Shown piece after piece: positions 1,191 to 39,581 of a DNA stretch of 39,721 bases (positions are counted from its first letter, which is position 1; the number at the start of each line of letters is the position of its first letter). The stretch covers positions 1 through 39,721 of the forward strand of contig CAYSBO010000004.1 in NCBI GenBank assembly GCA_964429285.1, given 5' to 3'. The translations under genes and the position numbers were made by a program. This stretch comes from an uncultured Dehalococcoidales bacterium. GTDB taxonomy: Bacteria; Chloroflexota; Dehalococcoidia; GIF9; AB-539-J10. The notes beneath the pieces were generated by a model. It saw only the letters and a list, made by a program, of their open reading frames with translations. It was not told the DNA's origin and ran no database searches.

Positions 1191-1258
1191 TTACAGGAAT
1201 AGTCAGCGGTCAGCAAAACTGAAAGCTGACAGCTATTGACCTTAGAAGGAGGTTTGTT

Positions 1259-2623: not shown

Positions 2624-2642
2624 CTTTCAGACTGGCGCAGGA

Positions 2643-3146: not shown

Positions 3147-3182
3147 GGGAGGGCCCGCCCCCTTTTCCATTTTGTGTTTGAC

Positions 3183-5851: not shown

Positions 5852-5916
5852 CTGAATGAACGTCCTCCCAGCGGAGGATTTAGAGAACAAGTCTGTAGAA
5901 AGGCAGGTAAGGACTT

Positions 5917-6780: not shown

Positions 6781-6784
6781 ATCA

Positions 6785-8344: not shown

Positions 8345-8369
8345 TAGAAAACCGGAGGAAAAGTCGAGA

Positions 8370-9475: not shown

Positions 9476-9560
9476 ATGTCAATGTGCGTGAGAGAGGCAG
9501 TCTTAGATGGACACCCATAAGCCACACGTGTCAAATAAACAAATCATCTAGGAGGCAAAA

Positions 9561-10292: not shown

Positions 10293-10317
10293 CAAATAGC
10301 AAGACCAGGAGGAACAC

Positions 10318-18881: not shown

Positions 18882-19394
18882 ATGGTGAATCCTACAACAG
18901 CGCAAGACACTCAGGTGCTCTCAGAGGACAAAGAGAAGGCAAATGAGAAGCGCCTGGATGAGATTCTATCGACCTATCAGGGTGAGAGAGAGGAGCTTAT
19001 TCCTATCCTGCAACAGGTCCAGCAGGCTTTTGGTTATCTGCCAGAGGCAGTGATGAAGAAGATAGCCAAATTCCTTCGGTTGCCGGAAAGCACCGTCTTT
19101 GGGGTGGGGACATTCTATGCCCAGTTCAAACTCGTCCCTTCAGGACGGAATATCATCAGGGTTTGTCGGGGTACTGCCTGTCATGTGCGCGGTAGTGGAC
19201 AAATCCTCGGCGAAATAGAGAAACAGTTGGGCATTACTGCCGGTGAGACTACACCGGATCTGGAATACTCGTTAGAGACGATAGCCTGCTTTGGTTCTTG
19301 TGCATTGGCACCAGTTGTGGTTACTAACAACAAGGTGTATGGGAGGATGGCGACGACAAAGGTGGAGGAGATATTGAAAAAGGAGACGCAGTGA
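18882..19394 (+). CDS. NuoE/HydC-like [2Fe-2S] subunit (copy 2)
   Basis: 170 aa. It has CRGTACHVRGS ... CFGSCALAP. The stop overlaps the next gene's GTG start. Confidence 0.87.
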   Translation: MVNPTTAQDTQVLSEDKEKANEKRLDEILSTYQGEREELIPILQQVQQAFGYLPEAVMKKIAKFLRLPESTVFGVGTFYAQFKLVPSGRNIIRVCRGTACHVRGSGQILGEIEKQLGITAGETTPDLEYSLETIACFGSCALAPVVVTNNKVYGRMATTKVEEILKKETQ

Positions 19395-21304: not shown

Positions 21305-21336
21305 GTATCGTATTAGCATGTAAGGAAGGTGCCAAG

Positions 21337-24300
21337 ATGTCTGTAACTGCTACAACCAAGATGGAAGAAAAGAGTACAACCACTATAAAGCTCACTATTA
21401 ACGGAGAGCAAGTTGAAGTAGAGAAGGGAGCTACCGTACTTGAAGCGGCACTTGGTGCCGGCATTTATATCCCGACACTGTGTTATGCCCCCGACCTTAA
21501 ACCTTATGGAGGTTGTCGCCTCTGTGTGGTTGAGATTGAAGGAATGCGGGGTCTGGTTAGTTCGTGTACTACGCCAGCAACAGACGGTATGGTGGTTCGC
21601 ACGGAAACAGAACGGGTCAATAGAGCACGTCGCATAACCATGGAGCTTATCATCGCCAATCACCATGGCGATTGTCTTACCTGTGCAAAAAACCAGAACT
21701 GTGAGCTGCTCAGGATTGCGCGATATTTGGGCATAGAACAGCCCGAAATTGACCGTTTGAGAAAAAGCACCGAAGTGCTTCCTATGGATGAGAGTCATCC
21801 GGCATTTCTCCGCGACCCAAACAAGTGCATTCTGTGTGGCCAGTGCGTACGTGCTTGCCATGAAATAGCTGTGGTCGGAGCCATTGACTTGGCTTTCCGA
21901 GGTAACTCAGCAAAAGTAGCCACCTTTGGTGATAAACCGATTGTTGAGTCCATCTGCAAGTCTTGTGGCGAATGTGTTGCCCGGTGTCCTACGGGAGCGT
22001 TGATCCCCAAATGGGAGAAACCACCTACCAAAGAGGTTCAAACCATTTGCCCCTACTGCGGAGTCGGTTGCTCTATCTATTTGGGTGTTCGTGACAACAA
22101 GATTGTTTCCGTGCGTGGGGATCCAGAGAGTCCGGCTAACAAGGGCAGTCTATGTGTCAAAGGACGCTGGGGATACGACTTCGTCGACCATCCCGAGAGG
22201 TTGACTACGCCACTGGTGCGAATCCCGGGCGTTGTCCGACAGGCAAGTCACAACGGAAAGGTGCAGGAAATCTTTCGCGAAGCCACCTGGGATGAGGCCC
22301 TTGAGCTGGTGGCAAACAAGCTAATTGAACTGAAGCAGAATTATGGAGCAGATAGTATTGCTGCCTTAAGTTCAGCCAAGTGCACAAATGAAGACAATTA
22401 CGTTATGCAAGAATTCGTTCGTGCTGTCATAGGAACCAACAATATTGACCATTGCGCCCGACTATGCCACGCCTCTACGGTGGTTGGAGGTATCGCCGCT
22501 TTTGGTCAAGGGGCGATGAGCAACTCTTATTCCGATTTTGAGAAGACCGAACTCTTCTTTGTCATCGGTTCTAATACTACGGAATGTCATCCCATTATTG
22601 GTGCAATGATCAAGAGGAGAGTCAAGTTCAACGGCGCTAAGCTTATTGTGGCTGATCCCCGCTCTACGGAACTTGGCGAATATGCCACTGCCAAGCTTGT
22701 TCACAAGCCGGGGACAGACGTTGCCCTCATCAATGGTCTGATGCACGTCATAATCAGGGACGGCCTTGAGAACAAGGAGTTCATCCAAGAACGCACTGAA
22801 GGTTTTGAGGATATGCGTCGGCTTGTGGAAAAGTTTACTCCTGAGGTAGTCGAGGCGATAACCGGGGTTCCAAAGGCTGATCTAGAGGCAGCTGCCCGCT
22901 TGTTCGGGGAGGCAAAAAGCGCCTGTATCCTCTATGGAATGGGGATAACCCAGCATACTACAGGCACAGACAATGTGAAAAGTGTGGCAAACCTGCTGCT
23001 GTTGACCGGGAATATAGGGAGGGAAGGCACGGGCTTTAGCCCCCTTCGGGGTCAGAACAACGTCCAGGGCGCTTGTGACCTGGGTGCATTACCTAATGTC
23101 TATCCCGGCTATCAAAAAGTTGATGATCCTGCTGTAAGAATGAAATTTGAAACTGCCTGGGACTGCAAATTGAGTAGCCAACCGGGGCTGACGGTTACCG
23201 AGATAGCCAATGCTATACTGAAGGAAGATATCAGAGGACTCTATGTTATGGGTGAGAACCCCATGCTAAGTGAACCTCACCTTGAACATACCCGGCATGC
23301 AATGGAAAAACTCGAGTTTCTGGTAGTTCAGGATATCTTTCTCTCCGAGACGGCCTGGTTAGCCGATGTGGTTCTGCCCGGTGCTGCGTTCGCAGAAAAG
23401 AACGGCACTTTCACCAATACTGAGAGGCGAGTTCAGAGAGTGAGGCAAGCGGTCGTGCCACCCGGGGAGGCGAAGCCTGACTGGGAGATCATCTGTGCTC
23501 TAGCAGACAAGATGGGGCATCCATTGCCTCATCAGAGCGCTGCCCAGATCATGGAAGAAATAGCCTCCCTGACTCCTATCTATGGCGGTATCCTTTTCGA
23601 CCGGCTAGACCAGGGTGGTCTGCAATGGCCCTGTCCTGATGCCTCGCACCCCGGAACTGTCTTCCTTTACCAGGACGGCTTCGCGCGGGGGCAAGGCAAA
23701 TTTCATGCCGTAGACCACATGCCACCGGCAGAAGCAATATCCAAAGGTTACCCGCTGGTGCTCACTACGGGGCGGGTGCTGGAGCACTGGCATACTGGCA
23801 CCATGAGTCGGCGCTCTAGTGTACTGAGTGAACTTAACCCTAATGGTGTAGTTGAGATGAGTCCCAGTGATGCGCTGAAGCTCGGGTTTATTGAGGGCGA
23901 TTCAATAGTACTTGCCTCAGAAAGAGGACGAGTGGAAGTGCCGTTACATATTACGGACGAATTGCCTCCTGGCGTTGTGTTCATGCCCTTTCACTGGCAC
24001 GAGGCAGCAGCAAATATCCTCACCAACGATGCTCTTGACCCGATCGCCAAGATTCCCGAGTTCAAAGTTGCGGCAGTTAACGCCGTGTTGGCGGTACTTG
24101 ATAGAGCTGCTCGTGATAATGCCTTTCTGGCTCGACTGGCGGAAAACCCTGCTGAGGCTCTGAAAGACTACGAACTGACAACGGAAGAAAAATCTGCCCT
24201 GATGAGCGGTGATATACGCAAGATAGAAGCATGGCTGGGTAAGCTAGATGAGCGCCTTAAGACCTGGCTTATGTTGCGGTTATCCCAGGAGAAATGGTAG
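21337..24300 (+). CDS. fdhA: Formate dehydrogenase alpha subunit (Cys type) with a NuoG-like N-terminal Fe-S domain and an extra C-terminal helical tail of about 73 aa
   Basis: 987 aa. The domains, in order:
- 2Fe-2S: TLCYAPDL..GGCRLCVVE..SSC.
- His-ligated cluster motif HHGDCLTCAKNQNC.
- CILCGQCVRAC and CKSCGECVARCP.
- MopB ICPYCGVGC.
- Active-site DHCARLCHAS, with Cys codon TGC at 22465-22467.
- RGQNNVQGACD.
The canonical end ...KIPEFKVAAV is followed by the tail. Confidence 0.9.
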   Translation: MSVTATTKMEEKSTTTIKLTINGEQVEVEKGATVLEAALGAGIYIPTLCYAPDLKPYGGCRLCVVEIEGMRGLVSSCTTPATDGMVVRTETERVNRARRITMELIIANHHGDCLTCAKNQNCELLRIARYLGIEQPEIDRLRKSTEVLPMDESHPAFLRDPNKCILCGQCVRACHEIAVVGAIDLAFRGNSAKVATFGDKPIVESICKSCGECVARCPTGALIPKWEKPPTKEVQTICPYCGVGCSIYLGVRDNKIVSVRGDPESPANKGSLCVKGRWGYDFVDHPERLTTPLVRIPGVVRQASHNGKVQEIFREATWDEALELVANKLIELKQNYGADSIAALSSAKCTNEDNYVMQEFVRAVIGTNNIDHCARLCHASTVVGGIAAFGQGAMSNSYSDFEKTELFFVIGSNTTECHPIIGAMIKRRVKFNGAKLIVADPRSTELGEYATAKLVHKPGTDVALINGLMHVIIRDGLENKEFIQERTEGFEDMRRLVEKFTPEVVEAITGVPKADLEAAARLFGEAKSACILYGMGITQHTTGTDNVKSVANLLLLTGNIGREGTGFSPLRGQNNVQGACDLGALPNVYPGYQKVDDPAVRMKFETAWDCKLSSQPGLTVTEIANAILKEDIRGLYVMGENPMLSEPHLEHTRHAMEKLEFLVVQDIFLSETAWLADVVLPGAAFAEKNGTFTNTERRVQRVRQAVVPPGEAKPDWEIICALADKMGHPLPHQSAAQIMEEIASLTPIYGGILFDRLDQGGLQWPCPDASHPGTVFLYQDGFARGQGKFHAVDHMPPAEAISKGYPLVLTTGRVLEHWHTGTMSRRSSVLSELNPNGVVEMSPSDALKLGFIEGDSIVLASERGRVEVPLHITDELPPGVVFMPFHWHEAAANILTNDALDPIAKIPEFKVAAVNAVLAVLDRAARDNAFLARLAENPAEALKDYELTTEEKSALMSGDIRKIEAWLGKLDERLKTWLMLRLSQEKW

Positions 24301-24946: not shown

Positions 24947-25010
24947 GTTCAGAGCACCAAAAAGTGGGCTACATTACCGCCCTGGACAGCACTGGACAAT
25001 GCGTTATTGC

Positions 25011-25039
25011 TTGCCTAATGTCTGTTTCTCTATTAGAAT
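25011..25039 (+). promoter_or_regulatory. Candidate sigma70-type promoter for the CBS/antiporter operon
   Basis: TTGCCT (25011-25016), 17 nt spacer, TAGAAT (25034-25039), about 45 nt upstream of ATG 25084. This rests on a pattern match only. Confidence 0.3.
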
Positions 25040-25083
25040 AGTGACGTAAGCATGTTGCGACTGTCTGGTGCAAGTTTCGCGCG

Positions 25084-25545
25084 ATGGAAGAATTATACAA
25101 GATAGAAGTAAGAAACGTAATGATACCCGTGGACGACACCCCCTTCATGGAAGAGAATGCGGGCTGCGCGGAATTCCTCAACAAGCTTTCCGTCAGGGCA
25201 CATGCCTGGGTGGTTAATAATGCTGTGGAAATGAAGGTTGTGGGGGTAGTAACGGAACATGATATGTTACATTCCATGATTCCTCCCAGGCAGAAGAAGG
25301 AAAGGATGTTTGGGACTCCTAGGACTGAGATATTTTGCCTGAAGGACAGCGTCGTCCGGGACATGATGACGCATAATCCCGTTGTATGCTCGGCGGAAGA
25401 AACCGTAGCTGACGCCTTGAAGAAGTTTTCCTCGTTCGACATCCGTAGATTGGCGGTTGTTGATGAGAAGGGAAGGCTTCTTGGGGAAATAACCATCCAG
25501 CGGTTGGCAAGACACCTCAGACACAAGTTCGCAAACACCGTATGA
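25084..25545 (+). CDS. CBS-domain pair protein
   Basis: 153 aa with two CBS-like repeats (VRNVMIP...VVGVVTEHDML and VRDMMTHNPVVC...RRLAVVDEKGRLLGEITIQRL). The stop overlaps the next gene's start by 4 nt. Confidence 0.8.
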   Translation: MEELYKIEVRNVMIPVDDTPFMEENAGCAEFLNKLSVRAHAWVVNNAVEMKVVGVVTEHDMLHSMIPPRQKKERMFGTPRTEIFCLKDSVVRDMMTHNPVVCSAEETVADALKKFSSFDIRRLAVVDEKGRLLGEITIQRLARHLRHKFANTV

Positions 25546-29833: not shown

Positions 29834-29857
29834 AATCAATTGAGGAAAGGAGGAAAT

Positions 29858-30160
29858 ATGGCCAGAATGGCGAAGATTGAACCTTTGGGAGACAGAGTGG
29901 TGATAAAGCCCACACCGAAGGAAGAAGTAAGCAAAGGGGGAATAGTGCTGCCAGATACGGCCCAGGAAAGGCCCCAGGAGGGGAAAATTATTGCTGTGGG
30001 TCCGGGTAGATTGACGGAGGAGGGCAAACGAATCGCTATGGAAGTGAAGAAGGGCGACAAAGTCATCTATTCCAAATACGCTGGGACCGAGTTCAAGGTG
30101 GATGATGAAGAACTGGTGATCATGCGCGAAGCCGATATCTTGGCCAAGAGAGGTCAATAA
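29858..30160 (+). CDS. groES: Co-chaperonin GroES
   Basis: I chose ATG 29858, with AGGAGG upstream, over the TTG at 29840 in the ORF track. Motifs seen: IEPLGDRVVIKP, GGIVLPDTAQE and GKIIAVGPG. Confidence 0.95.
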   Translation: MARMAKIEPLGDRVVIKPTPKEEVSKGGIVLPDTAQERPQEGKIIAVGPGRLTEEGKRIAMEVKKGDKVIYSKYAGTEFKVDDEELVIMREADILAKRGQ

Positions 30161-30174
30161 AAGGAGGTAATTGA

Positions 30175-31797
<1,623 letters not shown>

Positions 31798-31861: not shown

Positions 31862-33130
31862 TCAGATTCTAAGCCTTTGCCTGAGAGGTTCTTCTTCCTT
31901 GACAGGTCCGGTTACGGCCAGATTAAGCCCGTTTCCGACCAGAATCTGCTCGGCTACTTCTCTCAGCTGGTCTAAGGCAATGGCATCTACAATTCTAACA
32001 ACGTCGTCTACGGTGAGGATCCTTTGGGTCAAGATTTCCTGGCCACCGTGCCATAGTGCTACATTTCGGCTGTCCTCAAGTCGCAGCTGTAATCTTCCTT
32101 TTGACAGTTCCTTCGCTCTGGTAAGCTCACCCGCAGTGATTCCCTGCTTCACCCGGGATAGCTGTTCGAGGATGGCGGCCACGGCGATTTCTATCTTTTT
32201 GGGATCAACGCCGGCGTAGATGGTGAATGAGCCCCCACTCATGAAGTGCTCAGTGTAGCTGTGTATATCATAGGCCAGCCCTCTCTGTTCCCGGATTTCT
32301 TCAAACAGGCGGCTGCTCATGCCACCACCAAGCGCTGTGTTAAGCAAGTCGAGGACGAAGCGGTGTTGGTGGGAGTGAGAAAAGCCGTGAACAGCAAGGC
32401 AAAGATGCGCTTGCTCGATGTCCCTGGGCTCGGTATGCAACCTTGCTTCCGTTTGCTTATCATCGGTCACGTAGCCAGTGGTTAGCTCCCGGGCAGCCCA
32501 TTTGTCAAGTAAGGGCTGGATTTGAGCCATTGCCTCTTGATGGTTTATGTCACCAGCGATACTGACGACCGTATTATTAGGCATGTATCTGCGCTCAACG
32601 TAGTCTAATAGTTGCTTCCTAGTAATGGAAGACACAGTCTCCTGGTAACCGATGACCTCTCGCCCAAGAGGCTGCCTTGGCCACAGCAACTCATCTATCA
32701 GCGCATTTACCCGCTGCTGGGGAAGGTCGAGACCCATCTTGATTTCCTCCCCGATAACCTGACGCTCTCGCTCTATTTCTCTATTATCGAAGCGAGAGTT
32801 GAGCAGCAGATCAGATAGCACATCCACAGCAATTGGGAAGTGAGAACTGGCAACCTTACACCAGAACATAGTGAGTTCCTTATCTGTGCCGCCGTTGATT
32901 ATGCCGCCAACTCCTTCAATATCCTGGCTGAGCTGCTTAGATGTTGGTCGTCGCTGGGTGCCTTTGAAGAACAAATGCTCGGCGAAGTGGGATATGCCCG
33001 ATTCTTGTACGGTTTCGTAGCAAGAGCCAGCGCCTACAAGAATGGCAAGAGATACCGAGTGACTATGGGGCATACTACTGGTGATAACTCTCAAGCCATT
33101 ATCGAACGTGACCCTGGTGTACATCATCAC
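31862..33130 (-). CDS. M16-family (pitrilysin/insulinase-like) zinc peptidase
   Basis: 422 aa with the inverted zinc motif HxxEH (HFAEHLFFKG) near the N-terminus and a typical two-domain length. Confidence 0.85.
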   Translation of the reverse strand: MMMYTRVTFDNGLRVITSSMPHSHSVSLAILVGAGSCYETVQESGISHFAEHLFFKGTQRRPTSKQLSQDIEGVGGIINGGTDKELTMFWCKVASSHFPIAVDVLSDLLLNSRFDNREIERERQVIGEEIKMGLDLPQQRVNALIDELLWPRQPLGREVIGYQETVSSITRKQLLDYVERRYMPNNTVVSIAGDINHQEAMAQIQPLLDKWAARELTTGYVTDDKQTEARLHTEPRDIEQAHLCLAVHGFSHSHQHRFVLDLLNTALGGGMSSRLFEEIREQRGLAYDIHSYTEHFMSGGSFTIYAGVDPKKIEIAVAAILEQLSRVKQGITAGELTRAKELSKGRLQLRLEDSRNVALWHGGQEILTQRILTVDDVVRIVDAIALDQLREVAEQILVGNGLNLAVTGPVKEEEPLRQRLRI

Positions 33131-33309
33131 GAATTGTAATGTGCCTACTGTTTCCCGTCAACAAGAGTGGCCAGCACATGCGATGGTCTTTTTCCGATGG
33201 TGTCATCCCAACTATGGGCTGCCTCATGGCTGATCTGGGCCTTTAGGCTGCTCGCAGGGCAAGAAAATGGAGGTCACGGGTGCCCGACGTAGTTGATGAG
33301 GACGCAGGT

Positions 33310-33338
33310 TTGACAAACTTGCAAGGACAGGCTATTAT
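33310..33338 (+). promoter_or_regulatory. Candidate sigma70-type promoter of the BCR-like operon
   Basis: TTGACA (33310-33315), 17 nt spacer, TATTAT (33333-33338). This implies a leader of about 200 nt before ATG 33542. Confidence 0.4.
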
Positions 33339-33541
33339 GGAACGCGGACATGACTCGGTGGCAGGGAGAAATCCCAGAGCAATGCGAGTTACCTGACGTG
33401 TTGCCCAAATTCCATTCCTATCGCAGCAAAGCCGATGACTTCAGACGCCTGCTCACCATCGTGAACAATGGGATTGTCGCCGCCAGCTGACGTGGGTGGG
33501 TAAAGAAAACGGCTGAGGCTAAGTCCAGAACGGGTAGGTAA

Positions 33542-34684
33542 ATGATGAAGGACGTAGATAGATATTATCAGAATTACGGTGCAAGAGCTCGGGAATTGAA
33601 GAGGGAAGGTGGGAAGGTTATGGGCTATATGTGCGCTCTGACTCCTGTTGAGATCATAACTGCTGCCGGCTTCGTGCCGTTCCGAATAAAGGGCGACGTT
33701 AGCGAGCCAATTACGAAGGCTGACACTCAGATGGAAACCATTGTTTGTCCCTTGGTACGTAGCGGTTTTGATATGGCGCTCAAGGGGAAATATGAGTTTC
33801 TTGACGGTATAGTAATCCCCCATGCTTGTGACAGTATTGCCCGTAGCTATAGTACAATAAGTTATAGCCTTGATTTGCCTTACTCCCACTTCGTCCATAT
33901 TCCGCATACCACCAAGGACATATCTAAGGAATTCTTTGAGTCTGAGCTTGACACATTTAGGAAGAGTTTAGGCGCATTTGCTGGTAAGGAGATTTCCGAC
34001 GAGAGTCTGGTCCGGGCAATTGACCTTCACAACGAAATCAAGGCTAAGGTAAGGGAGCTATATCAGTTGAGGAAATCAGATCCGCCCCTGATCTCGGGCA
34101 CAGAGGTAACCAAGGTGCTGGTAGCTGCTATGGGCATTCCGGCGGTTGAAGCTAGTCAGTTGCTGGATGTGGTTATTGATGAAGTCAAGAACAGAGCCAG
34201 TCCTGCGGCTAGGAAGTCACCTAGGATAATGGTGGTTGGTGCTGAAGTCAATGACATTGCTTTCATCAAGTTGATTGAAGATAGTGGAGCAGACGTAGTG
34301 GTCGATAGCATGTGTGTTGGTACCAGAGATTACTTCTACGATGCGGACACTGCGAGAGGGCCGCTTGATGGCATGGCCGACTACTACTTGAGGAGGTTGA
34401 ATTGTCCTCGTACCTACAGAGAGTGGACCGGAAAGACATATGAAGACGACTTGGAAGCGAGGTTTGGCCATATTGGGAGTTTTGCTAAGGAATTCAATGT
34501 CGACGGTGTGATACTTTACCTCCTTAAGTACTGCGATCCATTTGGCTTCGAAGTGCCGGCAAGAATGCAGTATATACAATCGCTAGGTACCCCAGTGCTT
34601 TATATTGAAGATGAGTATTCAATGTCAACAATTGCCAGACTGCGAACCAGGGTTCAAGCCTTTCTTGAGACCCTTGCTGGATAG
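33542..34684 (+). CDS. Benzoyl-CoA reductase / 2-hydroxyacyl-CoA dehydratase family subunit (BcrC/BadD/BzdN-like)
   Basis: 380 aa. The N-terminus YYQNYGARARELKREGGKVMGYMCALTPVEIITAAGFVPFRI is typical of the HgdB/BcrC family, and conserved Cys residues are scattered (CPLV, HACDS, YCDPF). It is the first gene of a four-gene set. Confidence 0.75.
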   Translation: MMKDVDRYYQNYGARARELKREGGKVMGYMCALTPVEIITAAGFVPFRIKGDVSEPITKADTQMETIVCPLVRSGFDMALKGKYEFLDGIVIPHACDSIARSYSTISYSLDLPYSHFVHIPHTTKDISKEFFESELDTFRKSLGAFAGKEISDESLVRAIDLHNEIKAKVRELYQLRKSDPPLISGTEVTKVLVAAMGIPAVEASQLLDVVIDEVKNRASPAARKSPRIMVVGAEVNDIAFIKLIEDSGADVVVDSMCVGTRDYFYDADTARGPLDGMADYYLRRLNCPRTYREWTGKTYEDDLEARFGHIGSFAKEFNVDGVILYLLKYCDPFGFEVPARMQYIQSLGTPVLYIEDEYSMSTIARLRTRVQAFLETLAG

Positions 34685-34700
34685 CCTGGAGGGAGAATAA

Positions 34701-36110
34701 ATGGAAGAACAAAAATGGCCGGAGAAGTACCCCGTAGAGGGTAAAAGGGGAAGGAAATACGGAACCGTAGCGGCGATGAAGGTCGGCCCGATGGTCAAGG
34801 CAGCTATTGGAAGCTCGGTAGAGGCGCAACAGGAAGGTAAGGATATAGCTTACACCTTTATTGAGTGCAATTATGACGAAATTATACGGGCTATGGATAT
34901 CGTACCAGTGTGGACAGAAAACTACGCTGGCATATGCGGGGCAAAGCGTGACGCTCAGCGCTTCCTGGAGAGGGCAGAATCGTTGAACTTTTCCCGTTCT
35001 CTCTGCACCTATGCCTTGTGCGGCCTGGGATTCGACGAGTGGCGTGAAGAGTTGGGCGAGATGCCTCCCGATGCTCCATGGGGTGGGCAGGCAAGGCCCA
35101 GGGTTATGCTATCCAGCGGCCAGATAATCTGTGACCCGCGGAATAAGTGGTATCAGGCAGCGCAGCAATTTCAGCCGGATGTCCCTATTTATGATCTTAC
35201 CGGTCTTTACCCTATGTATGAACGTGATGTCGATCACCATGAGACTGAGGGCTATTATGCTAAGTATATGACCGAAGACCTCAGGGGTCTGGTGAAATTT
35301 CTGGAAGAGCATTTTCACAAGAAGATGGACTGGGACAGATTGTGGGAAACACTCAAGCTGGCTGATGATACTACAGATTTACATGTGGAATGCCGTGGGT
35401 TGCGCAAGGCTATTCCTACCCCAATGGATACAGGGGATGCTATGAACTGCATGGTGCCCCAGGCTTTTATGATGGGAACGCAGGAAGCTTATGACTTTTA
35501 CAAAGACCTGCGCGATGAACTGAAGCACAAGGTGGAACATAAGCTAGGTGTAATTGAAGATGAGAGGTATAGGCTGGTTTGGGCTGGAGGACTGCCGTCA
35601 TGGTTTGCTTTGTCTGATTTTAACTACTTCTGGAGTAAAGGCGCAGTATTCCCGGTAGAAAGCACATATAATGAGCAGGTGTATTCCGCAAAAGAACTTG
35701 ATTTACCGAAGACAGATGACCCTTTGGAATATATGGCCTGGAGGTGTATAAGACGATGGACCTACTGGTACGATAAGGCAAAAAAACGCACTGGGTCTGA
35801 ACCTGATGTGGAGCGTACCATTAATTACATTGAGCAGTATAACATAGACGGTATCGTAGTGCATGAGGCCTTCTCTTGCCGCAGTTGGCATGTGGGACTG
35901 ATCTGGATGCTGAATCAAATAGCCAAGATATACAAGCCCATCCCTGTATTGATATTGGGCAGGGGTGAAAAAAAGGAAAAAATGTATAGGGAAGTTCCAT
36001 CGCTGATTCTGGAGAGCGACATTATTGATATTAGCTCCTATAATGAGGCCGACACCAGAGCCAGGATAGATGCCTTTGTCGAGACATTGGAGGCAGTCAA
36101 GAGCCGGTGA
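34701..36110 (+). CDS. Benzoyl-CoA reductase / 2-hydroxyacyl-CoA dehydratase family subunit (BcrB/BadE/BzdO-like)
   Basis: 469 aa. It is a family-like second large subunit (IAYTFIECNYDEIIRAMDIVPVW, LCTYALCG, HEAFSCRSW). Its position and size parallel bcrB/bzdO. Confidence 0.7.
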   Translation: MEEQKWPEKYPVEGKRGRKYGTVAAMKVGPMVKAAIGSSVEAQQEGKDIAYTFIECNYDEIIRAMDIVPVWTENYAGICGAKRDAQRFLERAESLNFSRSLCTYALCGLGFDEWREELGEMPPDAPWGGQARPRVMLSSGQIICDPRNKWYQAAQQFQPDVPIYDLTGLYPMYERDVDHHETEGYYAKYMTEDLRGLVKFLEEHFHKKMDWDRLWETLKLADDTTDLHVECRGLRKAIPTPMDTGDAMNCMVPQAFMMGTQEAYDFYKDLRDELKHKVEHKLGVIEDERYRLVWAGGLPSWFALSDFNYFWSKGAVFPVESTYNEQVYSAKELDLPKTDDPLEYMAWRCIRRWTYWYDKAKKRTGSEPDVERTINYIEQYNIDGIVVHEAFSCRSWHVGLIWMLNQIAKIYKPIPVLILGRGEKKEKMYREVPSLILESDIIDISSYNEADTRARIDAFVETLEAVKSR

Positions 36111-36955
36111 GTAGGCAGTATTTTGCTGGAGTGGACATCGGTTCCACTATGACCAAGGTAGTGATCATGGATGGCGGGCTTGTGGCCTCGGTCATCGGCC
36201 CCACTGGCCCCGAGCACAGAAAGCTGGCCAATCGGGTGATGGAGGAAGCCCTAGCCAAGGCACAGTTGTCCTTTAATGACATCAGCTATGTGGTGGCCAC
36301 TGGCTATGGAAGAATCAACGTCCCCTTTGCCGATAAGCAAATAACTGAGATAACCTGTCATGCCCGGGGGGTTGGTTACCTGCTGCCTGAGGTAAGGACG
36401 GTGATTGATATTGGCGGTCAGGACTGTAAGGGGATTAAGTTGAATGATAATGGTAAGGTCGTGGACTTTGTCATGAATGACAAGTGTGCTGCTGGGACAG
36501 GGAGGTTTCTTGAGGTGACGGCTGAGGAATTGGGTGTCAGCCTAGAAGACATGGGAAGATTGTCGTTGGAGGCAAAGAATAGGGTTGAGATAAGCAGCAC
36601 CTGTACCGTGTTTGCCGCCCAGGAGGTGGTGGCTAGACTCTCAGAAGGAGTGCCTCTGGCCGATATTATCGCTGGTCTACACGAGGCGATTGCCACCAGG
36701 ATATACGGAATGGTGAGACGGCTGAAGGTAGAAAGGGAAGTGGCCTTGACTGGTGGTGGGGCCAAGAATATCGGGCTAGTCAAGGCTTTAGAGGCTAAGC
36801 TAGGGTTTCCAGCACTGGTGCCTGCTGAGCCTTTGCTAACCGGAGCTATGGGTGCTGCTCTGCTGGGCAGTGATCTGGTCAAACAGGCTGCCGAGAGCGG
36901 CACAGCTTTGTCCAGGAGCGAACGCCGCTTGGAAGAAGCGACTTTGTTTACATAA
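36107..36955 (+). CDS. BcrA/BadF/HgdC-type ATPase (ASKHA-fold electron-activating subunit), copy A
   Basis: 282 aa with a GTG start overlapping the upstream stop. Motifs seen: FAGVDIGSTMTKVVIMD, DIGGQDCKGI, and the cluster-bridging Cys pair in NDKCAAGTGRFLE and SSTCTVFAAQE. Confidence 0.85.
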   Translation: MSRQYFAGVDIGSTMTKVVIMDGGLVASVIGPTGPEHRKLANRVMEEALAKAQLSFNDISYVVATGYGRINVPFADKQITEITCHARGVGYLLPEVRTVIDIGGQDCKGIKLNDNGKVVDFVMNDKCAAGTGRFLEVTAEELGVSLEDMGRLSLEAKNRVEISSTCTVFAAQEVVARLSEGVPLADIIAGLHEAIATRIYGMVRRLKVEREVALTGGGAKNIGLVKALEAKLGFPALVPAEPLLTGAMGAALLGSDLVKQAAESGTALSRSERRLEEATLFT

Positions 36956-37006
36956 TACATGGGTAAGCCTAGCACCTGGTGAGGTTCCTGCAAACCGGAA
37001 AACCAT

Positions 37007-37843
37007 GTGAGCCGTGTTAGAAGGCTCGTCCGGAGGATTCCAACGATAGTGGTGTATGTTGCCGGCGTTGATATTGGCTCTGCTTTTTCCAAAGCAGTCA
37101 TAATGGTCAATAACGAGATTGTATCCTACAGCGTAATACCTTCGGGGGGAAATTACAGGCACGCTGCTGAAGATGTAACCGGGAAGGCTTTGACCAAGGC
37201 AAACCTATCTTGGCAGGACATAGGTTATACAGTAGCCACCGGGTATGGTGCTGCCAATGTCTCCTTCTCCCATTCGATGGTTTCCGACATATCCTGTTTG
37301 GCCAGGGGTGCACACTATCTGTTCCCCGCTGCCCGAACTGCAATCGATATTGGTGGGCAGTATACTAGGGTGTTGAGGCTGGATGACCGGGGAAAAGCGA
37401 CTGCCTTCCTACTGAGTGAGAAATGCGCTGCCGGGAGTGGGCGGTTCCTTCAGATCATTGCTAAGGTGCTGCAAATTGACCTGAGGGACATCGGGAAGTT
37501 ATCCCTGGAATCTCGAAAGAGAGTCGACTTCAATACCGGTTGTGCCGTATTCGCTGAATCAGAGGCAGTATCCCGTGTTGCTGAAGGTGCTGCCAAGGAG
37601 GATATTTTGGCCGGTCTTCATAGGACCCTGGCAGCTAAAGTCCAGGCCTTGGTGGAGAGGCTTGGGATGGAGCCTGATTGTACCCTGGTTGGTGGGGGAG
37701 CCAAGGACATCGGACTGGTCAAGAGCATAGAAAAGAGCTTGGGGTGTGGTCTTCTGGTTCCTGAGGAGCCTCAGGTTGTAGCTGCTCTGGGTGCGGCTTT
37801 GATAGCTGGGGAAAAAGCCACTGCGAACAAGGCTGCCCATTGA
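37007..37843 (+). CDS. BcrD/BadG/HgdC-type ATPase, copy B (distinct paralog)
   Basis: 278 aa from GTG 37007. An alternative GTG at 37049 has GGAGG 12 nt upstream. Motifs seen: VAGVDIGSAFSKAVIM, DIGGQYTRVL, and the Cys pair in SEKCAAGSGRFLQ and NTGCAVFAESE. Confidence 0.82.
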   Translation: MSRVRRLVRRIPTIVVYVAGVDIGSAFSKAVIMVNNEIVSYSVIPSGGNYRHAAEDVTGKALTKANLSWQDIGYTVATGYGAANVSFSHSMVSDISCLARGAHYLFPAARTAIDIGGQYTRVLRLDDRGKATAFLLSEKCAAGSGRFLQIIAKVLQIDLRDIGKLSLESRKRVDFNTGCAVFAESEAVSRVAEGAAKEDILAGLHRTLAAKVQALVERLGMEPDCTLVGGGAKDIGLVKSIEKSLGCGLLVPEEPQVVAALGAALIAGEKATANKAAH

Positions 37844-37891: not shown

Positions 37892-39097
37892 CTATGGCAT
37901 GTTTGAGGTGCTCTTGCTTACAAACCTGCCCATTCTTCTCAGTGCTTCCTCGATGTTAGGCAGTGAAGTAGCGTAGCAACAACGGACAAAACCTTCACCG
38001 CAGGCTCCGAAAGCGGTGCCCGGGACCACAGCGACTTTTTCTTCCCTCAGTAGCTTTTCAGCGAACTCCTCTGAACTCATTCCAGTGGCTCTTATGGAAG
38101 GAAAGGCATAGAAGGCACCCTTCGGCTCGAAACAGGATAAACCAATGTCATTAAGTCTCTTCACCATTAGGCGGCGGCGTCTGTTATACTCTTGAACCAT
38201 CTTTTCCACTTCAGCTTCGCCGTTTCGTAAGGCTTCGATGGCCGCCATCTGTGCCATCGTTGGTGCGGAGAGCATAGTATACTGATGGATTTTTGTCAGG
38301 GCCTCGACAAAACGGCGGTCGGCTGCCACATAGCCAATGCGCCAGCCAGTCATGGCGTGAGATTTGGAAAATCCACTCACCAGGATGGTGCGCTCCTTCG
38401 CGTTGCGAAGGGTGGGAAAACAAATATGATCCACTCCGTAGATCAGTCGGGCGTATATCTCATCGGATACCACCACTAAGTTGTGCTTTACGGCCACCTG
38501 GACGATAATATTGGCCTCTGCTGTAGACATAACTGCACCCGTGGGATTAGCTGGGTAGCCTAATAGAATAGCCTTGGTCTGTTTCGTGATACGGGCTTCC
38601 ACGTCGGTTGCCCTGACCACAAAACTGTTTTCTTCGTTTGTGGGAACCGGAACGGGCACACCGCCGGCCAGAATGATATTGGCTGGGTAGGCTACATAGC
38701 AAGGGTCAGGAATTATGACCTCGTCACCAGGGTTGATAATCGCTCTCATAGCAAGGTCTAATCCTTCACTACTGCCCGTAGTAATGAGAATTTCATGCTC
38801 AGGATGATAGCTCAGTCCGTAGCGACGCTCTAGATAATTGCCCAGTTCCTGGCGCAGTTCCGGCATGCCGGAGTTTGAGGTATACATGGTATAACCTTTG
38901 TCCAGAGAATAAGTGCCTGCCTCTCTGATGTGCCAGGGGGTAACAAAGTCGGGCTCTCCTATACCAAGTGAGATGACATCCTCCATGGAGGAAAGGAGAT
39001 CGAAGAACTTCCTGATGCCCGATGGTGGGAGGCCATTCACTTTTCGAGCCAGCAAATAGTCTCGCGCTTGAAATGTAACCGACTTTGTGTTCAGCAT
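37892..39097 (-). CDS. Class I/II PLP-dependent aminotransferase (aspartate/aromatic/alanine aminotransferase-like)
   Basis: 401 aa. Motifs seen: LGIGEPDF, GYPANPTG, and the PLP-lysine region SGFSKSHAMTGWRIGY. Its start lies 1 nt after the lrp stop. Confidence 0.88.
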   Translation of the reverse strand: MLNTKSVTFQARDYLLARKVNGLPPSGIRKFFDLLSSMEDVISLGIGEPDFVTPWHIREAGTYSLDKGYTMYTSNSGMPELRQELGNYLERRYGLSYHPEHEILITTGSSEGLDLAMRAIINPGDEVIIPDPCYVAYPANIILAGGVPVPVPTNEENSFVVRATDVEARITKQTKAILLGYPANPTGAVMSTAEANIIVQVAVKHNLVVVSDEIYARLIYGVDHICFPTLRNAKERTILVSGFSKSHAMTGWRIGYVAADRRFVEALTKIHQYTMLSAPTMAQMAAIEALRNGEAEVEKMVQEYNRRRRLMVKRLNDIGLSCFEPKGAFYAFPSIRATGMSSEEFAEKLLREEKVAVVPGTAFGACGEGFVRCCYATSLPNIEEALRRMGRFVSKSTSNMP

Positions 39098-39098
39098 G

Positions 39099-39581
39099 TC
39101 ACGGTGTTATGGGTAACCGTCTGTTTGTTTCTTTGGGAAGGTGGAAAGTCTCCCCAGTCTCTTTATATCGTTTGAGGAGGAAGTGAGTTACGGTACTTTG
39201 TACCCTGTCCAAAGTAGCCAGCTTCTCTGTGACAAAAGTGGAAATGTCCTGCATGGTCTTGCCCTTTACTAGTATGGCCAGATCATAGGTGCCGGAAACT
39301 AGATAAGCGGAATACACTTCAGGGAACTGGTAAATGCGCTCAGCTATGGCATCGAAGCCAATACCGCGTTGCGGCGTTATCCTGACTTCAATTAAGGCGC
39401 ATATATCTTCCTTGCCCAGTTGGGGCCAGTTTATTATAGCTTTGTATTTCAGAATGGTACCGTCTTTTTCAGCTTGCTTGATCGTTCTCTCTACCTCGCT
39501 GACAGGTTTGTCCACCATGGTGGAAATCTGTTCAGGAGTTGCCCGGGCATTCTGTTCCAGAATATCAAAAATCTCTTTCAC
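39099..39581 (-). CDS. Lrp/AsnC-family transcriptional regulator
   Basis: 160 aa with an N-terminal wHTH (ILEQNARATPEQISTMVDKPVSEVERTIKQAEKDG) and a C-terminal RAM/ACT-like domain (VYSAYLVSGTYDLAILV). Confidence 0.85.
   Translation of the reverse strand: MKEIFDILEQNARATPEQISTMVDKPVSEVERTIKQAEKDGTILKYKAIINWPQLGKEDICALIEVRITPQRGIGFDAIAERIYQFPEVYSAYLVSGTYDLAILVKGKTMQDISTFVTEKLATLDRVQSTVTHFLLKRYKETGETFHLPKETNRRLPITP

What the first reader, a model, noticed from the sequence alone, without database searches (positions are those of the whole stretch)
33542..37843. Orphan four-subunit class-I benzoyl-CoA-reductase-like ATP-dependent enzyme with two different ATPase subunits and no pathway context
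Seen:
- There are two HgdA/B- or BcrB/C-family subunits (380 and 469 aa).
- They are followed by two distinct ASKHA ATPases (282 and 278 aa).
- Each ATPase retains the Cys pair (xxKCAAGxGRF and xxxC(T/A)VFA) that in HgdC/BcrAD-type proteins ligates the bridging [4Fe-4S] cluster.
- The gene order and sizes parallel bcrCBAD/bzdNOPQ.
- No ferredoxin, dienoyl-CoA hydratase, ring-hydrolase, CoA ligase or CoA-transferase gene is in the window.

Established knowledge: heterodimeric ATPase modules are the hallmark of class I BCRs. 2-hydroxyacyl-CoA dehydratases use a separate homodimeric activator.

Inference: this is an ATP-driven low-potential reductase or dehydratase whose substrate cannot be deduced here. 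BCR-like clusters of unknown function have been noted in uncultured anaerobes.
Basis: partly seen in the sequence, partly recalled or inferred. Interest (0 to 1): 0.65.

Follow-up and report, generated by a model that had tools for sequence, protein, structure and literature searches.

The report
Hybrid BCR/dehydratase-type radical enzyme operon
A transcribed four-gene operon in a sediment Dehalococcoidia bacterium encodes an uncharacterised but widespread iron-sulfur enzyme that looks like an ATP-driven benzoyl-CoA reductase, yet its gene neighbours in related genomes point to 2-hydroxyacid/acyl-CoA metabolism rather than aromatic-ring reduction.

Summary
Four co-oriented genes (A 380 aa, B 469 aa, C 282 aa, D 278 aa or more likely 264 aa) encode two HGD-D-family subunits and two ASKHA ATPases that keep both cluster cysteines. 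Every score is far below the Bzd, Bcr, Had and DCCP equivalog cutoffs.

- A keeps all six Cys ligands of the BzdN/DCCP [8Fe-9S] double cubane, which HadC and MbdN lack.
- B keeps the three-Cys open-site [4Fe-4S] and the Glu, but has Arg, Leu and Trp where BzdO has His131, Gln274 and Leu383.
- B is equidistant from BzdO, MbdO and HadB by sequence and by fold.
- C and D are two ancient orthologous groups. D carries conserved changes in both phosphate motifs, as MbdP does, and stays in the genome even when unlinked.

"Orphan, no context" holds only for this window. In about 140 related loci (Dehalococcoidia, Desulfobacterota) the genes recur with family-III CoA-transferase or acyl-CoA ligase, GlcD/GlcF-type 2-hydroxyacid dehydrogenase, an MBL-fold protein, acyl-CoA dehydrogenase/EtfAB, IorAB and the aminotransferase/AsnC pair seen here. 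No dch/had/oah-type (crotonase-family) gene turned up among the neighbours I annotated.

Best reading: an ATP-primed 2-hydroxyacyl-CoA (de)hydratase-type enzyme with BCR-like hardware. The substrate is unknown. This is a new variant of a known kind.

The parts
33310..33338 (+). Promoter-like site (TTGACA-17-TATTAT, 11 of 12 matches) upstream of gene A
   Evidence: Metatranscriptome contigs begin at 33366 and 33368, and there is no RNA coverage at 32910-33250.
33542..34684 (+). Subunit A (380 aa): BzdN/DCCP-like small subunit, predicted [8Fe-9S] double-cubane carrier
   Evidence: PF06050, 277 bits. Best PDB match is BzdN 8s02_B (177 bits; family profile 221 bits), ahead of HadC, DCCP and MbdN. 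Six invariant Cys (C31, C69, C96, C258, C288, C331) align with all six BzdN/DCCP ligand positions; R48, R262 and K/R285 match BzdN Arg53, Arg267 and Arg290 (PMC11971306).
34701..36110 (+). Subunit B (469 aa): divergent catalytic subunit with an open-site three-Cys [4Fe-4S]
   Evidence: PF06050, 158 bits. Only 40-54 bits to MbdO, BzdO and HadB. C102, C144 and C393 correspond to BzdO C95, C128 and C380; E73 to Glu65; Y104 and Y323 to Tyr97 and Tyr298. R147 stands at His131, L298 at Gln274, R394 at Glu381 and W396 at Leu383. Foldseek TM 0.62-0.64 to MbdO, BzdO and HadB.
36107..36955 (+). C-type ATPase (282 aa): canonical HadI/MbdQ-like electron-activating ASKHA ATPase. Its start overlaps the stop of B by 4 nt
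   Evidence: TIGR00241, 280 bits. HadI 259 bits, MbdQ 247 bits. Motifs DIGSTMTK, DIGGQD, KCAAGTGRF and CTVFA are conserved in 51 orthologues. The 4-nt B/C overlap recurs in at least 11 loci.
37007..37843 (+). D-type ATPase (278-aa ORF; the probable start at GTG 37049 gives 264 aa): paralogue with altered phosphate motifs and retained cluster cysteines
   Evidence: 49% identical to C. It forms a separate orthologous group. Conserved DIGSAFSK and GGQ(F/Y), with KCAAGSGRF and CAVFAE kept. MbdP likewise has GGQT where all homodimeric activators and MbdQ have GGQD. Start site.
37892..39097 (-). Class I/II aminotransferase, convergent with the operon: a tentative pathway partner
   Evidence: PF00155; PRK07682-like, 577 bits against a cutoff of 620. 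The same gene lies next to A-B-C-D in L001, L032, L035, L038 and L042, and next to the C-D ATPase pair in L109, where A-B were not seen in the fetched stretch.
39099..39581 (-). AsnC/Lrp-family regulator, co-conserved with the aminotransferase
   Evidence: PF01037. It co-occurs with the aminotransferase in the window-type loci.

Best explanation
The operon encodes a member of a large, uncharacterised clade of the BCR-I/HAD radical-enzyme superfamily that mixes features of both branches.

Proposed mechanism (inferred):
1. Reduced ferredoxin loads the [4Fe-4S] cluster bridging a C/D ATPase heterodimer.
2. ATP hydrolysis drives the electron into the six-Cys double-cubane cluster of A.
3. The electron passes from A to the three-Cys, open-site [4Fe-4S] of B, which binds an acyl-CoA thioester.
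4. The most likely chemistry is ketyl-radical, reversible interconversion of an (R)-2-hydroxyacyl-CoA and its 2-enoyl-CoA.

This step would sit in a pathway acid <-> acyl-CoA (family-III CoA-transferase or ligase) <-> 2-hydroxyacid <-> 2-oxoacid (GlcD/GlcF-type dehydrogenase) <-> amino acid (aminotransferase) or arylacetyl/acyl-CoA (IorAB), with acyl-CoA dehydrogenase/Etf on the enoyl-CoA side.

Shown:
- Gene content, cluster-ligand conservation and two ATPase orthologue groups.
- Conserved gene neighbourhoods.
- Co-transcription in situ.

Inferred:
- Cluster types, the C/D heterodimer, the electron path, the reaction type and its direction.
- The substrate is not identified. Candidates are lactyl-, 2-hydroxyglutaryl- or aryllactyl-CoA.
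For: **Architecture**
- Searches give the four genes and their families.
- Six invariant Cys in A match BzdN and DCCP.
- B keeps the three Cys ligands, the Glu and the thioester Tyr residues.

**ATPases**
- They form two orthologous groups.
- The D-type has conserved motif changes that parallel MbdP.
- The D-type is retained elsewhere in 15 genomes whose A-B locus lacks it, including the complete chromosome CP070673.

**Context in several independent architectures and two phyla**
- Dehalococcoidia: CoA-transferase III, (MBL), A, B, C, D, GlcD, GlcF, with IorBA adjacent.
- Desulfobacterota: D, A, B, C flanked by thiolase, ligase and a GlcD-GlcF fusion. The split version keeps D next to the same three genes.
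- L083 keeps CoAT-C-D-GlcD-GlcF while A-B lie on another contig, L036.
- ORM2a: C, GlcF/GlcD, MBL, D, A, B, acyl-CoA dehydrogenase, EtfB, EtfA, FeS oxidoreductase. This is the same logic as clostridial hadA-I-B-C-acdB-etfBA.
- L042, a window-type locus: two ligases and an acyl-CoA dehydrogenase, then A-B-C-D, then aminotransferase/AsnC.
- Counts: of 87 distinct B loci, 27 have GlcD/F and 30 have a CoA-transferase or ligase within 8 kb. These are lower bounds because many contigs are short.

**Other points**
- Position 298 is Leu/Ile as in HadB, not the Gln274 of BzdO.
- ORM2a already has a complete class II BCR (PMC13101534).
- RNA contigs span all three gene junctions.
Against: - Canonical HADs have a three-Cys [4Fe-5S] beta subunit and a homodimeric activator (PMC11971306). 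Here the beta-like subunit keeps an invariant six-Cys double-cubane signature. In BzdNO that cluster is thought to store two electrons for a two-electron reduction.
- A conserved ATPase pair is the BCR hallmark.
- A scores higher against BzdN than against HadC (221 vs 171 bits).
- The window itself has no CoA-transferase, ligase or GlcD/F gene.
- Some relatives sit next to aromatic-acid genes: a UbiD/VdcC-like decarboxylase in L112 and L121, also present in L061, and an XDH-family Mo-enzyme in L036. Those genes could fit an aromatic reductase or dehydroxylase.
- Neighbourhood conservation within closely related MAGs partly reflects shared ancestry.
- There is no biochemical evidence for any member.
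Confidence: 0.5

Rival explanations
1. It is a genuine ATP-stoichiometric two-electron reductase of the class I BCR type (BzdNOPQ-like heterotetramer). It would act on some aromatic, hydroxy-aromatic or otherwise unsaturated acyl-CoA: dearomatisation, or reductive dehydroxylation of a hydroxybenzoyl-CoA-type substrate. Marine Chloroflexi studies have assumed this when annotating such clusters as bzdNOPQ.
For: - The N-O-P-Q gene order and sizes match.
- The six-Cys double-cubane signature is shared only with BzdN and DCCP.
- There are two distinct, co-retained ATPases, with MbdP-like asymmetry in D.
- The B stop and C start overlap, suggesting translational coupling.
- The Glu65 and Tyr97/Tyr298 equivalents are conserved.
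- Aromatic-acid genes lie nearby in some loci: a UbiD/VdcC-like decarboxylase, an XDH-family Mo-enzyme, IorAB, and AOR plus a ferredoxin-like gene.
- The family occurs in aromatic-degrading lineages: Desulfatiglandales, Syntrophus, Syntrophorhabdales, ORM2a.
- There is a literature precedent for the annotation (PMC5736913).
Against: - All Bzd and Bcr equivalog scores are far below cutoff.
- BzdO His131, Gln274, Leu383 and Glu381 are replaced by invariant Arg, Leu, Trp and Arg.
- No dch/had/oah-type crotonase, BzdV or stand-alone ferredoxin recurs next to the family. The proven class-I-type THNCoA reductase of strict anaerobes does sit in an operon with ferredoxin, BzdV and hydratases (PMC6849830).
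- The recurrent partners are GlcD/GlcF, CoA-transferase III and Acd/Etf.
- Hosts are energy-limited strict anaerobes, and ORM2a already has a class II BCR.
Confidence: 0.3
2. C and D are not a heterodimer. They are two alternative or sequential homodimeric activators: C is the working activator of A/B, and D serves another enzyme or condition.
For: - Both keep the two cluster cysteines and most ASKHA motifs.
- In many Desulfobacterota genomes only C is adjacent to A-B, and D lies more than 1 Mb away.
- Both C and D resemble homodimeric HadI more than they resemble MbdP.
Against: - D forms its own orthologous group that tracks the A/B family across two phyla.
- When unlinked, D stays beside the same thiolase, ligase and GlcD/F genes that flank the unsplit clusters.
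- D has conserved substitutions in both phosphate motifs, including loss of the GGQD Asp, as in the BCR delta subunit MbdP.
- C and D are co-transcribed, with an RNA contig spanning the junction.
Confidence: 0.15
3. It is a DCCP-like ATP-dependent reductase of small molecules (acetylene-, azide- or hydrazine-type substrates) rather than a CoA-ester enzyme.
For: The best NCBIfam hit of A is the double-cubane reductase model NF040772 (212 bits), and A keeps the six-Cys signature.
Against: - The NF040772 score is well below the 350-bit cutoff.
- DCCP is a homodimer with six Cys per subunit, whereas B lacks the Cys4 and Cys5 positions and has the BzdO/HadB-type open-site cluster with thioester-binding Tyr residues.
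- The neighbours are CoA-transferases, CoA ligases and acyl-CoA dehydrogenases.
Confidence: 0.05

Closest known systems
Azoarcus/Aromatoleum-type class I benzoyl-CoA reductase BzdNOPQ (PDB 8S02; PMC11971306)
   Same: - Same gene order and subunit sizes.
- A shares all six double-cubane Cys ligands and three of the four basic residues around the distal subcluster.
- B shares the three Cys ligands, the Glu65 equivalent and the Tyr97/Tyr298 equivalents.
- There are two different ATPase subunits.
   Different: - Scores are only 178/454 (bzdN), 73/449 (bzdO) and 196/380 (bzdQ) bits against the equivalog cutoffs.
- His131, Gln274, Leu383 and Glu381 are replaced by Arg, Leu, Trp and Arg.
- No ferredoxin, BzdV, dch/had/oah or benzoate-CoA ligase context.
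- Both ATPases are closer to HadI and MbdQ than to a BCR delta subunit, so the pair probably arose by an independent duplication.
2-Hydroxyacyl-CoA dehydratases with their CoA-transferase and activator: HadA/HadBC/HadI of C. difficile (PDB 3O3M, 4EHT) and FldABC/FldI of C. sporogenes
   Same: - B has the HadB-type open-site three-Cys cluster and a Leu/Ile at the HadB position.
- C and D have HadI as their best PDB hit (259 and 222 bits).
- Related loci carry the same pathway logic: family-III CoA-transferase, 2-hydroxyacid dehydrogenase, acyl-CoA dehydrogenase + EtfBA, aminotransferase.
   Different: - The beta-like subunit A has six invariant Cys (double-cubane type) instead of the three-Cys [4Fe-5S].
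- Two paralogous ATPases replace one homodimeric activator.
- The 2-hydroxyacid dehydrogenase partner is a FAD/FeS GlcD-GlcF type. By my recollection the clostridial enzymes are NAD-dependent; I did not check this here.
- HadB and HadC equivalog scores are 75/750 and 143/700.
Double-cubane cluster protein DCCP with DCCP-R (PDB 6ENO, 7YYL)
   Same: A has the six-Cys signature, and its best NCBIfam hit is the DCCP model. The ATPases are homologous to DCCP-R.
   Different: DCCP is a homodimer with a double cubane in each subunit and no known CoA substrate. Here only A has the signature, and B is a catalytic HadB/BzdO-type subunit.
Thauera-type 3-methylbenzoyl-CoA reductase MbdONQP (PDB 9G87, 9GAI)
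   Same: - It is the only solved heterodimeric ATPase module.
- MbdP, like D, has lost the Asp of GGQD.
- MbdO shares the S-C-R motif at the third Cys ligand.
   Different: MbdN has only three of the six Cys. B scores only 54 bits to MbdO as a single sequence and 78 bits as a family profile.
[quoted passage not shown]
   Same: It is a Bzd-like ATP-dependent four-subunit enzyme in strictly anaerobic Desulfobacterota, the same lineages that carry this family.
   Different: The thn operon carries ferredoxin, BzdV, enoyl-CoA hydratases, dehydrogenases and hydrolases, and none of these recur here. I could not make a sequence comparison because no reference sequences were at hand.

Membership tests
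Class I BCR, Bzd type (BzdNOPQ) | Four genes in the order small subunit, large subunit, two ATPases | tested here: met
Class I BCR, Bzd type (BzdNOPQ) | BzdN: six Cys ligands of the [8Fe-9S] double cubane | tested here: met
   C31, C69, C96, C258, C288 and C331 are invariant in 30 family members and align to all six BzdN/DCCP positions. The cluster itself has not been observed.
Class I BCR, Bzd type (BzdNOPQ) | BzdO: Cys95/Cys128/Cys380 cluster with an open site, plus the Glu65 proton donor | tested here: met
   C102, C144, C393 and E73 are invariant. These features are also present in HadB, so they do not discriminate.
Class I BCR, Bzd type (BzdNOPQ) | BzdO active-site and benzoyl-pocket residues His131, Gln274, Leu383 and Glu381 | tested here: not met
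   They are replaced by invariant R147, L298, W396 and R394. Trp46 and Ser44 could not be aligned. MbdO also differs from BzdO at several of these sites, so this lowers membership in the Bzd type but not reductase chemistry as such.
Class I BCR, Bzd type (BzdNOPQ) | Reaches the curated equivalog scores (TIGR03190/03191/03192) | tested here: not met
   178/454, 73/449, and 196 and 170/380 bits.
Class I BCR, Bzd type (BzdNOPQ) | Genomic linkage to the benzoyl-CoA pathway (ferredoxin, BzdV/KGOR, dch, had, oah, benzoate-CoA ligase) | tested here: not met
   These genes are absent from the window and from the neighbour clusters I annotated in about 140 related loci. Only recurrent clusters and selected single genes were annotated. 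The rest of the source genome was not available.
Class I BCR, Bzd type (BzdNOPQ) | ATP-dependent two-electron reduction of benzoyl-CoA | not testable with these tools
   This needs an enzyme assay.
2-Hydroxyacyl-CoA dehydratase (HadBC, HgdAB, FldBC, LcdAB + activator) | Alpha subunit with a three-Cys open-site [4Fe-4S] | tested here: met
2-Hydroxyacyl-CoA dehydratase (HadBC, HgdAB, FldBC, LcdAB + activator) | Beta subunit with a three-Cys [4Fe-5S] cluster (no double cubane) | tested here: not met
   A keeps three additional invariant Cys. HadC lacks the C31 and C258 equivalents.
2-Hydroxyacyl-CoA dehydratase (HadBC, HgdAB, FldBC, LcdAB + activator) | A single homodimeric activator ATPase | tested here: not met
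   Two orthologous ATPase groups are co-retained in each genome examined. The oligomeric state itself was not tested.
2-Hydroxyacyl-CoA dehydratase (HadBC, HgdAB, FldBC, LcdAB + activator) | Operon linkage to a CoA-transferase (family III for Had and Fld), a 2-hydroxyacid dehydrogenase and acyl-CoA dehydrogenase/Etf | tested here: inconclusive
   Met in related loci. Not met in this window, which has only the aminotransferase/AsnC pair.
2-Hydroxyacyl-CoA dehydratase (HadBC, HgdAB, FldBC, LcdAB + activator) | Reaches the curated HadB and HadC equivalog scores | tested here: not met
   75/750 and 143/700 bits.
Double-cubane cluster protein (DCCP/DCCP-R) | Homodimer whose subunits each carry six Cys; NF040772 cutoff of 350 bits | tested here: not met
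   A scores 212 bits. B scores 46 bits and lacks the Cys4 and Cys5 positions.

The most novel reading that the evidence does not exclude
This is a third functional branch of the BCR-I/HAD superfamily. It would be an enzyme with a double-cubane electron reservoir and its own asymmetric ATPase heterodimer, which hydrates or dehydrates (or reductively transforms) alpha-functionalised acyl-CoAs. The pathway would be an anaerobic 'alpha-oxidation-like' route (acyl-CoA -> enoyl-CoA -> 2-hydroxyacyl-CoA -> 2-hydroxyacid -> 2-oxoacid -> amino acid or chain-shortened acyl-CoA), widespread and expressed in subsurface Dehalococcoidia and Desulfobacterota. Its routine annotation as 'class I benzoyl-CoA reductase' would then have led to over-calling of anaerobic benzoate degradation in sediment Chloroflexi.
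Probability: 0.3. Interest if true: 0.75.

Novelty: new variant of a known kind. Interest (0 to 1): 0.6.

Why it matters
- **Enzymology.** The BCR-I/HAD family is a small set of enzymes that use ATP to push electrons below the normal biological redox range. Only a handful of members have known substrates. This clade has at least 766 close homologues, plus about 125 related clusters (at 50% identity), and combines hardware thought to separate reductases (double cubane, two ATPases) from dehydratases. A defined function would show what that hardware is really for.
- **Ecology.** Four-gene clusters of this general kind in marine Chloroflexi have been read as class I BCR and used to infer benzoate degradation in the deep subsurface (PMC5736913). 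If this family is not a BCR, any such inference that rests on members of this family would need revisiting.
- **Testability.** The operon is transcribed in situ, and the conserved partner genes give a short list of candidate substrates.

Tried and rejected
- **Fold search.** The AF2 model of B (pLDDT 66, pTM 0.74) was searched against the PDB with Foldseek. It confirms the catalytic-subunit fold but ranks MbdO, BzdO and HadB within TM 0.62-0.64, so it does not discriminate.
- **Sequence and profile searches against the PDB**. B is equidistant from BCR and HAD. No solved HgdAB, FldBC or LcdAB was found to compare with.
- **Rfam scan of the whole window.** No hit, so there is no riboswitch clue to a substrate.
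- **Terminator scan.** Nothing convincing after D.
- **Literature searches** for this family in Dehalococcoidia, or for a HAD with a double cubane or heterodimeric activator. No characterised member turned up.
- **ORM2a proteomics paper.** It does not discuss this cluster, but shows a full class II BCR in that organism.
- **Extra cluster in B?** I considered that B might also bind a second subcluster through C56, C79 and C107. I rejected this as unsupported: Cys4 and Cys5 are absent, and C56 and C107 are specific to this family.
- **DCCP-like small-molecule reductase.** I consider this unlikely, given B's architecture and the CoA-related context.
- **Full four-subunit phylogeny** against Bcr, Bzd, Hgd, Fld and Lcd. 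Curated HMM scores were used instead.

Full report
**1. The observation**

The four + strand ORFs are exactly where stated: A 33542-34684 (380 aa), B 34701-36110 (469 aa), C 36107-36955 (282 aa) and D 37007-37843 (278 aa).
- A and B are PF06050 (HGD-D). C and D are PF01869 (BcrAD_BadFG).
- Both ATPases pass the generic activase domain model TIGR00241.
- No subunit comes near any curated equivalog cutoff. A scores double_cubane 212/350, bzdN 178/454, HadC 143/700 and BcrC 131/421. B scores BcrB 80/487, HadB 75/750 and bzdO 73/449. C and D score bzdQ 196 and 170/380.
- The cited Cys motifs are present and align with the bridging-cluster cysteines of HadI and HgdC.
- C and D are 49% identical to each other. 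A and B are barely alignable.
- D probably starts at GTG 37049, behind a GGAGG box, which gives 264 aa as in its orthologues.

**2. Expression and operon structure**

- A strong promoter-like site (11 of 12 matches) lies at 33310-33338.
- The region occurs in sediment and salt-lake metagenomes and in at least ten metatranscriptomes.
- In four of these RNA data sets, contigs at 95-100% identity start at 33366-33368.
- Single contigs span the A/B junction (33366-34940), the B/C junction (35402-36918) and the C/D junction (36608-37390).
- Word depth is about 10-30. That is higher than the flanking M16 peptidase and aminotransferase genes and lower than groESL.
- Contig depth is a crude measure and DNA carry-over cannot be excluded, but co-transcription of the four genes is the simplest reading.
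- The B stop overlaps the C start by 4 nt, here and in at least 11 related loci.

**3. The organism and the window**

The rest of the window encodes:
- acetyl-CoA synthase/CODH subunits;
- NuoE/F-like proteins, CooC and a NiFe hydrogenase;
- MTHFR with MetV-like partners;
- two formate-dehydrogenase-type molybdoenzymes;
- a two-component system, TsaD and GroES/EL.

The closest loci are Dehalococcoidia MAGs, at 89% and 79% identity for B. The host is therefore a Wood-Ljungdahl anaerobe of the Dehalococcoidia.

No CoA ligase, CoA-transferase, crotonase or stand-alone ferredoxin is in the window. A convergent aminotransferase/AsnC pair follows D directly.

**4. Cofactor signatures**

The BzdNO crystal structure paper (PMC11971306) gives the diagnostics:
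- BzdN and DCCP bind an [8Fe-9S] double cubane through six Cys.
- HadC has a three-Cys [4Fe-5S] remnant.
- BzdO and HadB have a three-Cys [4Fe-4S] with an open, water- or substrate-binding iron.
- BzdO uses Glu65 and His131, and a Trp46/Tyr97/Leu302/Leu383 pocket, with Tyr97, Tyr298 and Gln274 binding the thioester oxygen.

Subunit A, in a 30-member family alignment:
- It has exactly six invariant Cys: C31, C69, C96, C258, C288 and C331.
- They align to all six positions in BzdN and DCCP.
- HadC lacks the first and fourth positions. MbdN lacks the first, fourth and fifth.
- R48, R262 and K/R285 match three of the four basic residues around the distal subcluster of BzdN.

Subunit B:
- It keeps the three ligands (C102, C144, C393), the Glu (E73) and both Tyr residues (Y104, Y323).
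- It has invariant R147, L298, R394 and W396 where BzdO has His131, Gln274, Glu381 and Leu383.
- Position 298 is Ile or Leu, as in HadB, in 83 of 105 more distant relatives. Positions 147, 396 and 397 vary across that wider clade, as expected for specificity determinants.

By sequence profile, B is equidistant from BzdO (85 bits), MbdO (78) and HadB (75). By fold it is also equidistant, with TM 0.63, 0.64 and 0.62.

**5. The two ATPases**

- Seventy-six ATPases from the related loci fall into two clean groups. The C-type is always directly after B. The D-type is the second gene downstream, or lies upstream of A.
- The C-type has canonical motifs: DIGSTMTK and DIGGQD.
- The D-type has conserved DIGSAFSK and GGQ(F/Y), while both cluster cysteines are kept.
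- Among solved structures, all homodimeric activators (HadI, HgdC, DCCP-R) and MbdQ have GGQD. Only MbdP, the second subunit of a BCR ATPase heterodimer, has lost that Asp (GGQT).
- Many Desulfobacterota loci have only the C-type next to A-B. Scanning genomes with a D-type profile found a D-type gene elsewhere in 15 such genomes, including the complete chromosome CP070673, where it lies 1.3 Mb away.
- Both paralogues are thus co-retained with the family. This favours an obligate C/D pair but does not prove it.
- Both C and D are closer to HadI and MbdQ than to MbdP, so the pair probably arose by a duplication independent of the BCR one.

**6. Comparative context**

B has 766 close homologues (66-85% identity in the top 120), all without a functional name. 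About 125 further clusters at 50% identity score E <= 1e-30, far closer than any solved enzyme.

Neighbourhood clustering of about 140 loci gave several architectures:
- **Dehalococcoidia:** family-III CoA-transferase, (MBL-fold protein), A, B, C, D, GlcD-like FAD dehydrogenase, GlcF/LdhH-like CCG iron-sulfur protein. IorB/IorA often follow on the other strand.
- **Desulfatiglandales and relatives:** formate-THF ligase, D, A, B, C, convergent with a CxxCxxCC protein, a thiolase, an acyl-CoA ligase and a GlcD-GlcF fusion.
- **Desulfobacteraceae:** a split form. A-B-C sit among housekeeping genes. D sits at a second locus beside the same thiolase, ligase and GlcD-GlcF genes.
- **L083/L036:** CoA-transferase, C, D, GlcD and GlcF lie on one contig, and A-B on another.
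- **ORM2a:** C, GlcF/GlcD, MBL, D, A, B, acyl-CoA dehydrogenase, EtfB, EtfA and an FeS oxidoreductase.
- **Window type:** A-B-C-D convergent with aminotransferase/AsnC. L042 adds two acyl-CoA ligases and an acyl-CoA dehydrogenase upstream. L038 adds an aldehyde:ferredoxin oxidoreductase and a ferredoxin-like protein.
- **Syntrophus (L061):** A-B-C-D, ligase, IorA, IorB, ligase, all on one strand.
- **L112 and L121:** a UbiD/VdcC-like decarboxylase directly downstream of the cluster.

Of 87 distinct B loci, 27 have GlcD/F and 30 have a CoA-transferase or ligase within 8 kb. These are lower bounds, since many contigs are short.

No crotonase-type dch/oah, BzdV or small ferredoxin recurs. By contrast, the proven Bzd-like THNCoA reductase of strict anaerobes sits in an operon with ferredoxin, BzdV, hydratases and hydrolases (PMC6849830). 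ORM2a also expresses a complete class II BCR (PMC13101534).

**7. Interpretation**

The partner set is CoA activation, a D-2-hydroxyacid dehydrogenase, acyl-CoA dehydrogenase/Etf, an aminotransferase and a 2-oxoacid:ferredoxin oxidoreductase. That is the logic of 2-hydroxyacyl-CoA dehydratase pathways such as hadA-I-B-C-acdB-etfBA, or fldA-I-B-C with fldH.

I therefore favour an ATP-primed ketyl-radical (de)hydratase acting on a 2-hydroxyacyl-CoA/enoyl-CoA pair (confidence 0.5). The direction may well be oxidative in these organisms, running from enoyl-CoA to 2-oxoacid. Two observations suggest this:
- GlcD/GlcF enzymes usually oxidise hydroxyacids.
- Acd/Etf/FeS-oxidoreductase modules of Desulfobacterota work in beta-oxidation.

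The enzyme's own hardware argues the other way. An invariant double-cubane signature and a conserved asymmetric ATPase pair are BCR traits, so a stoichiometric two-electron reductase remains a serious rival (0.3).

The substrate is undetermined:
- The invariant Arg147, Arg394, His397 and Trp396 suggest a polar or anionic group near the cluster.
- IorAB, UbiD and the aminotransferase hint at aromatic-amino-acid-derived acids.
- GlcD/F hints at D-lactate-type or 2-hydroxyglutarate-type acids.

**8. Relation to the literature and novelty**

Single-cell genomics of marine Chloroflexi reported 'class I BCR (bzdNOPQ)' with an 'Hdr-IFO' complex directly downstream, and inferred benzoate degradation from it (PMC5736913). 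That arrangement resembles the A-B-C-D-GlcD-GlcF loci found here. I could not compare the sequences, so identity is unverified.

No characterised member of this clade was found. It fails the defining tests of the Bzd-type BCR, of canonical HAD and of DCCP while sharing features with each. I class it as a new variant of a known kind, with interest 0.6.

Noticed in passing
window 93-11894 (+): A long Wood-Ljungdahl/energy gene cluster: ACS beta (CdhC-type), CdhD-like, NuoE-like, NuoF-like with extra 4Fe-4S domains, CooC, NiFe hydrogenase small and large subunits with the HycI protease, two MetV-like (DUF5981) proteins, MTHFR and DUF3786.
   Followed up: partly
window 12118-16215 (+): A 1365-aa fusion protein that combines an N-terminal 2Fe-2S domain, a GltD-like Fer4_20 + FAD/NAD(P) module and a complete formate-dehydrogenase-type molybdopterin subunit. 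This looks like a single-chain NAD(P)H-linked FDH-type enzyme and is an unusual architecture.
   Followed up: no
window 18882-24300 (+): A second FDH-type module: NuoE-like, NuoF-like and a 987-aa NuoG/FdhA-like molybdoenzyme. A MobA-like gene follows on the - strand, and a PAS histidine kinase/LuxR response regulator pair lies upstream.
   Followed up: no
window 24969-25538 (-): A 189-aa ORF with no Pfam match at E <= 1e-5.
   Followed up: no
window 37047: One metatranscriptome contig (run X5) lacks one base here, inside the 5' end of the longest D ORF but upstream of the probable true start at 37049. This is consistent with that stretch being non-coding.
   Followed up: yes
L036 11365-15574: In one Dehalococcoidia MAG, A-B are followed on the same strand by CoxG and the FAD, 2Fe-2S and Mo subunits of a xanthine-dehydrogenase/4-hydroxybenzoyl-CoA-reductase-family enzyme. 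Its C/D ATPases sit with the CoA-transferase and GlcD/GlcF genes on another contig, L083.
   Followed up: partly
L112 4294-5700; L121; L061 571-1983: A UbiD-family decarboxylase scores 623 bits against the VdcC (hydroxyarylic acid decarboxylase) model, just under its 650-bit cutoff (L112). It lies directly downstream of A-B-C-D in a Syntrophorhabdales MAG (L112) and a deltaproteobacterial MAG (L121). A member of the same cluster lies about 7 kb upstream of A, on the opposite strand, in a Syntrophus MAG (L061).
   Followed up: partly
L038 6185-8528: A tungsten-type aldehyde:ferredoxin oxidoreductase and a 148-aa 4Fe-4S dicluster protein lie directly upstream of A on the same strand, in a locus with the window-type arrangement. 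The dicluster protein is a possible electron donor.
   Followed up: no
window 29840-31797: groES/groEL is by far the most highly represented transcript of this region in the salt-lake metatranscriptomes, with word depth 60-325.
   Followed up: no
subunit B residues C56, C79, C107 (window about 34866-35021): B has three further conserved cysteines beyond the three cluster ligands. C79 is shared by 70 of 105 distant relatives, while C56 and C107 are specific to this family. Their role is unexplained.
   Followed up: partly
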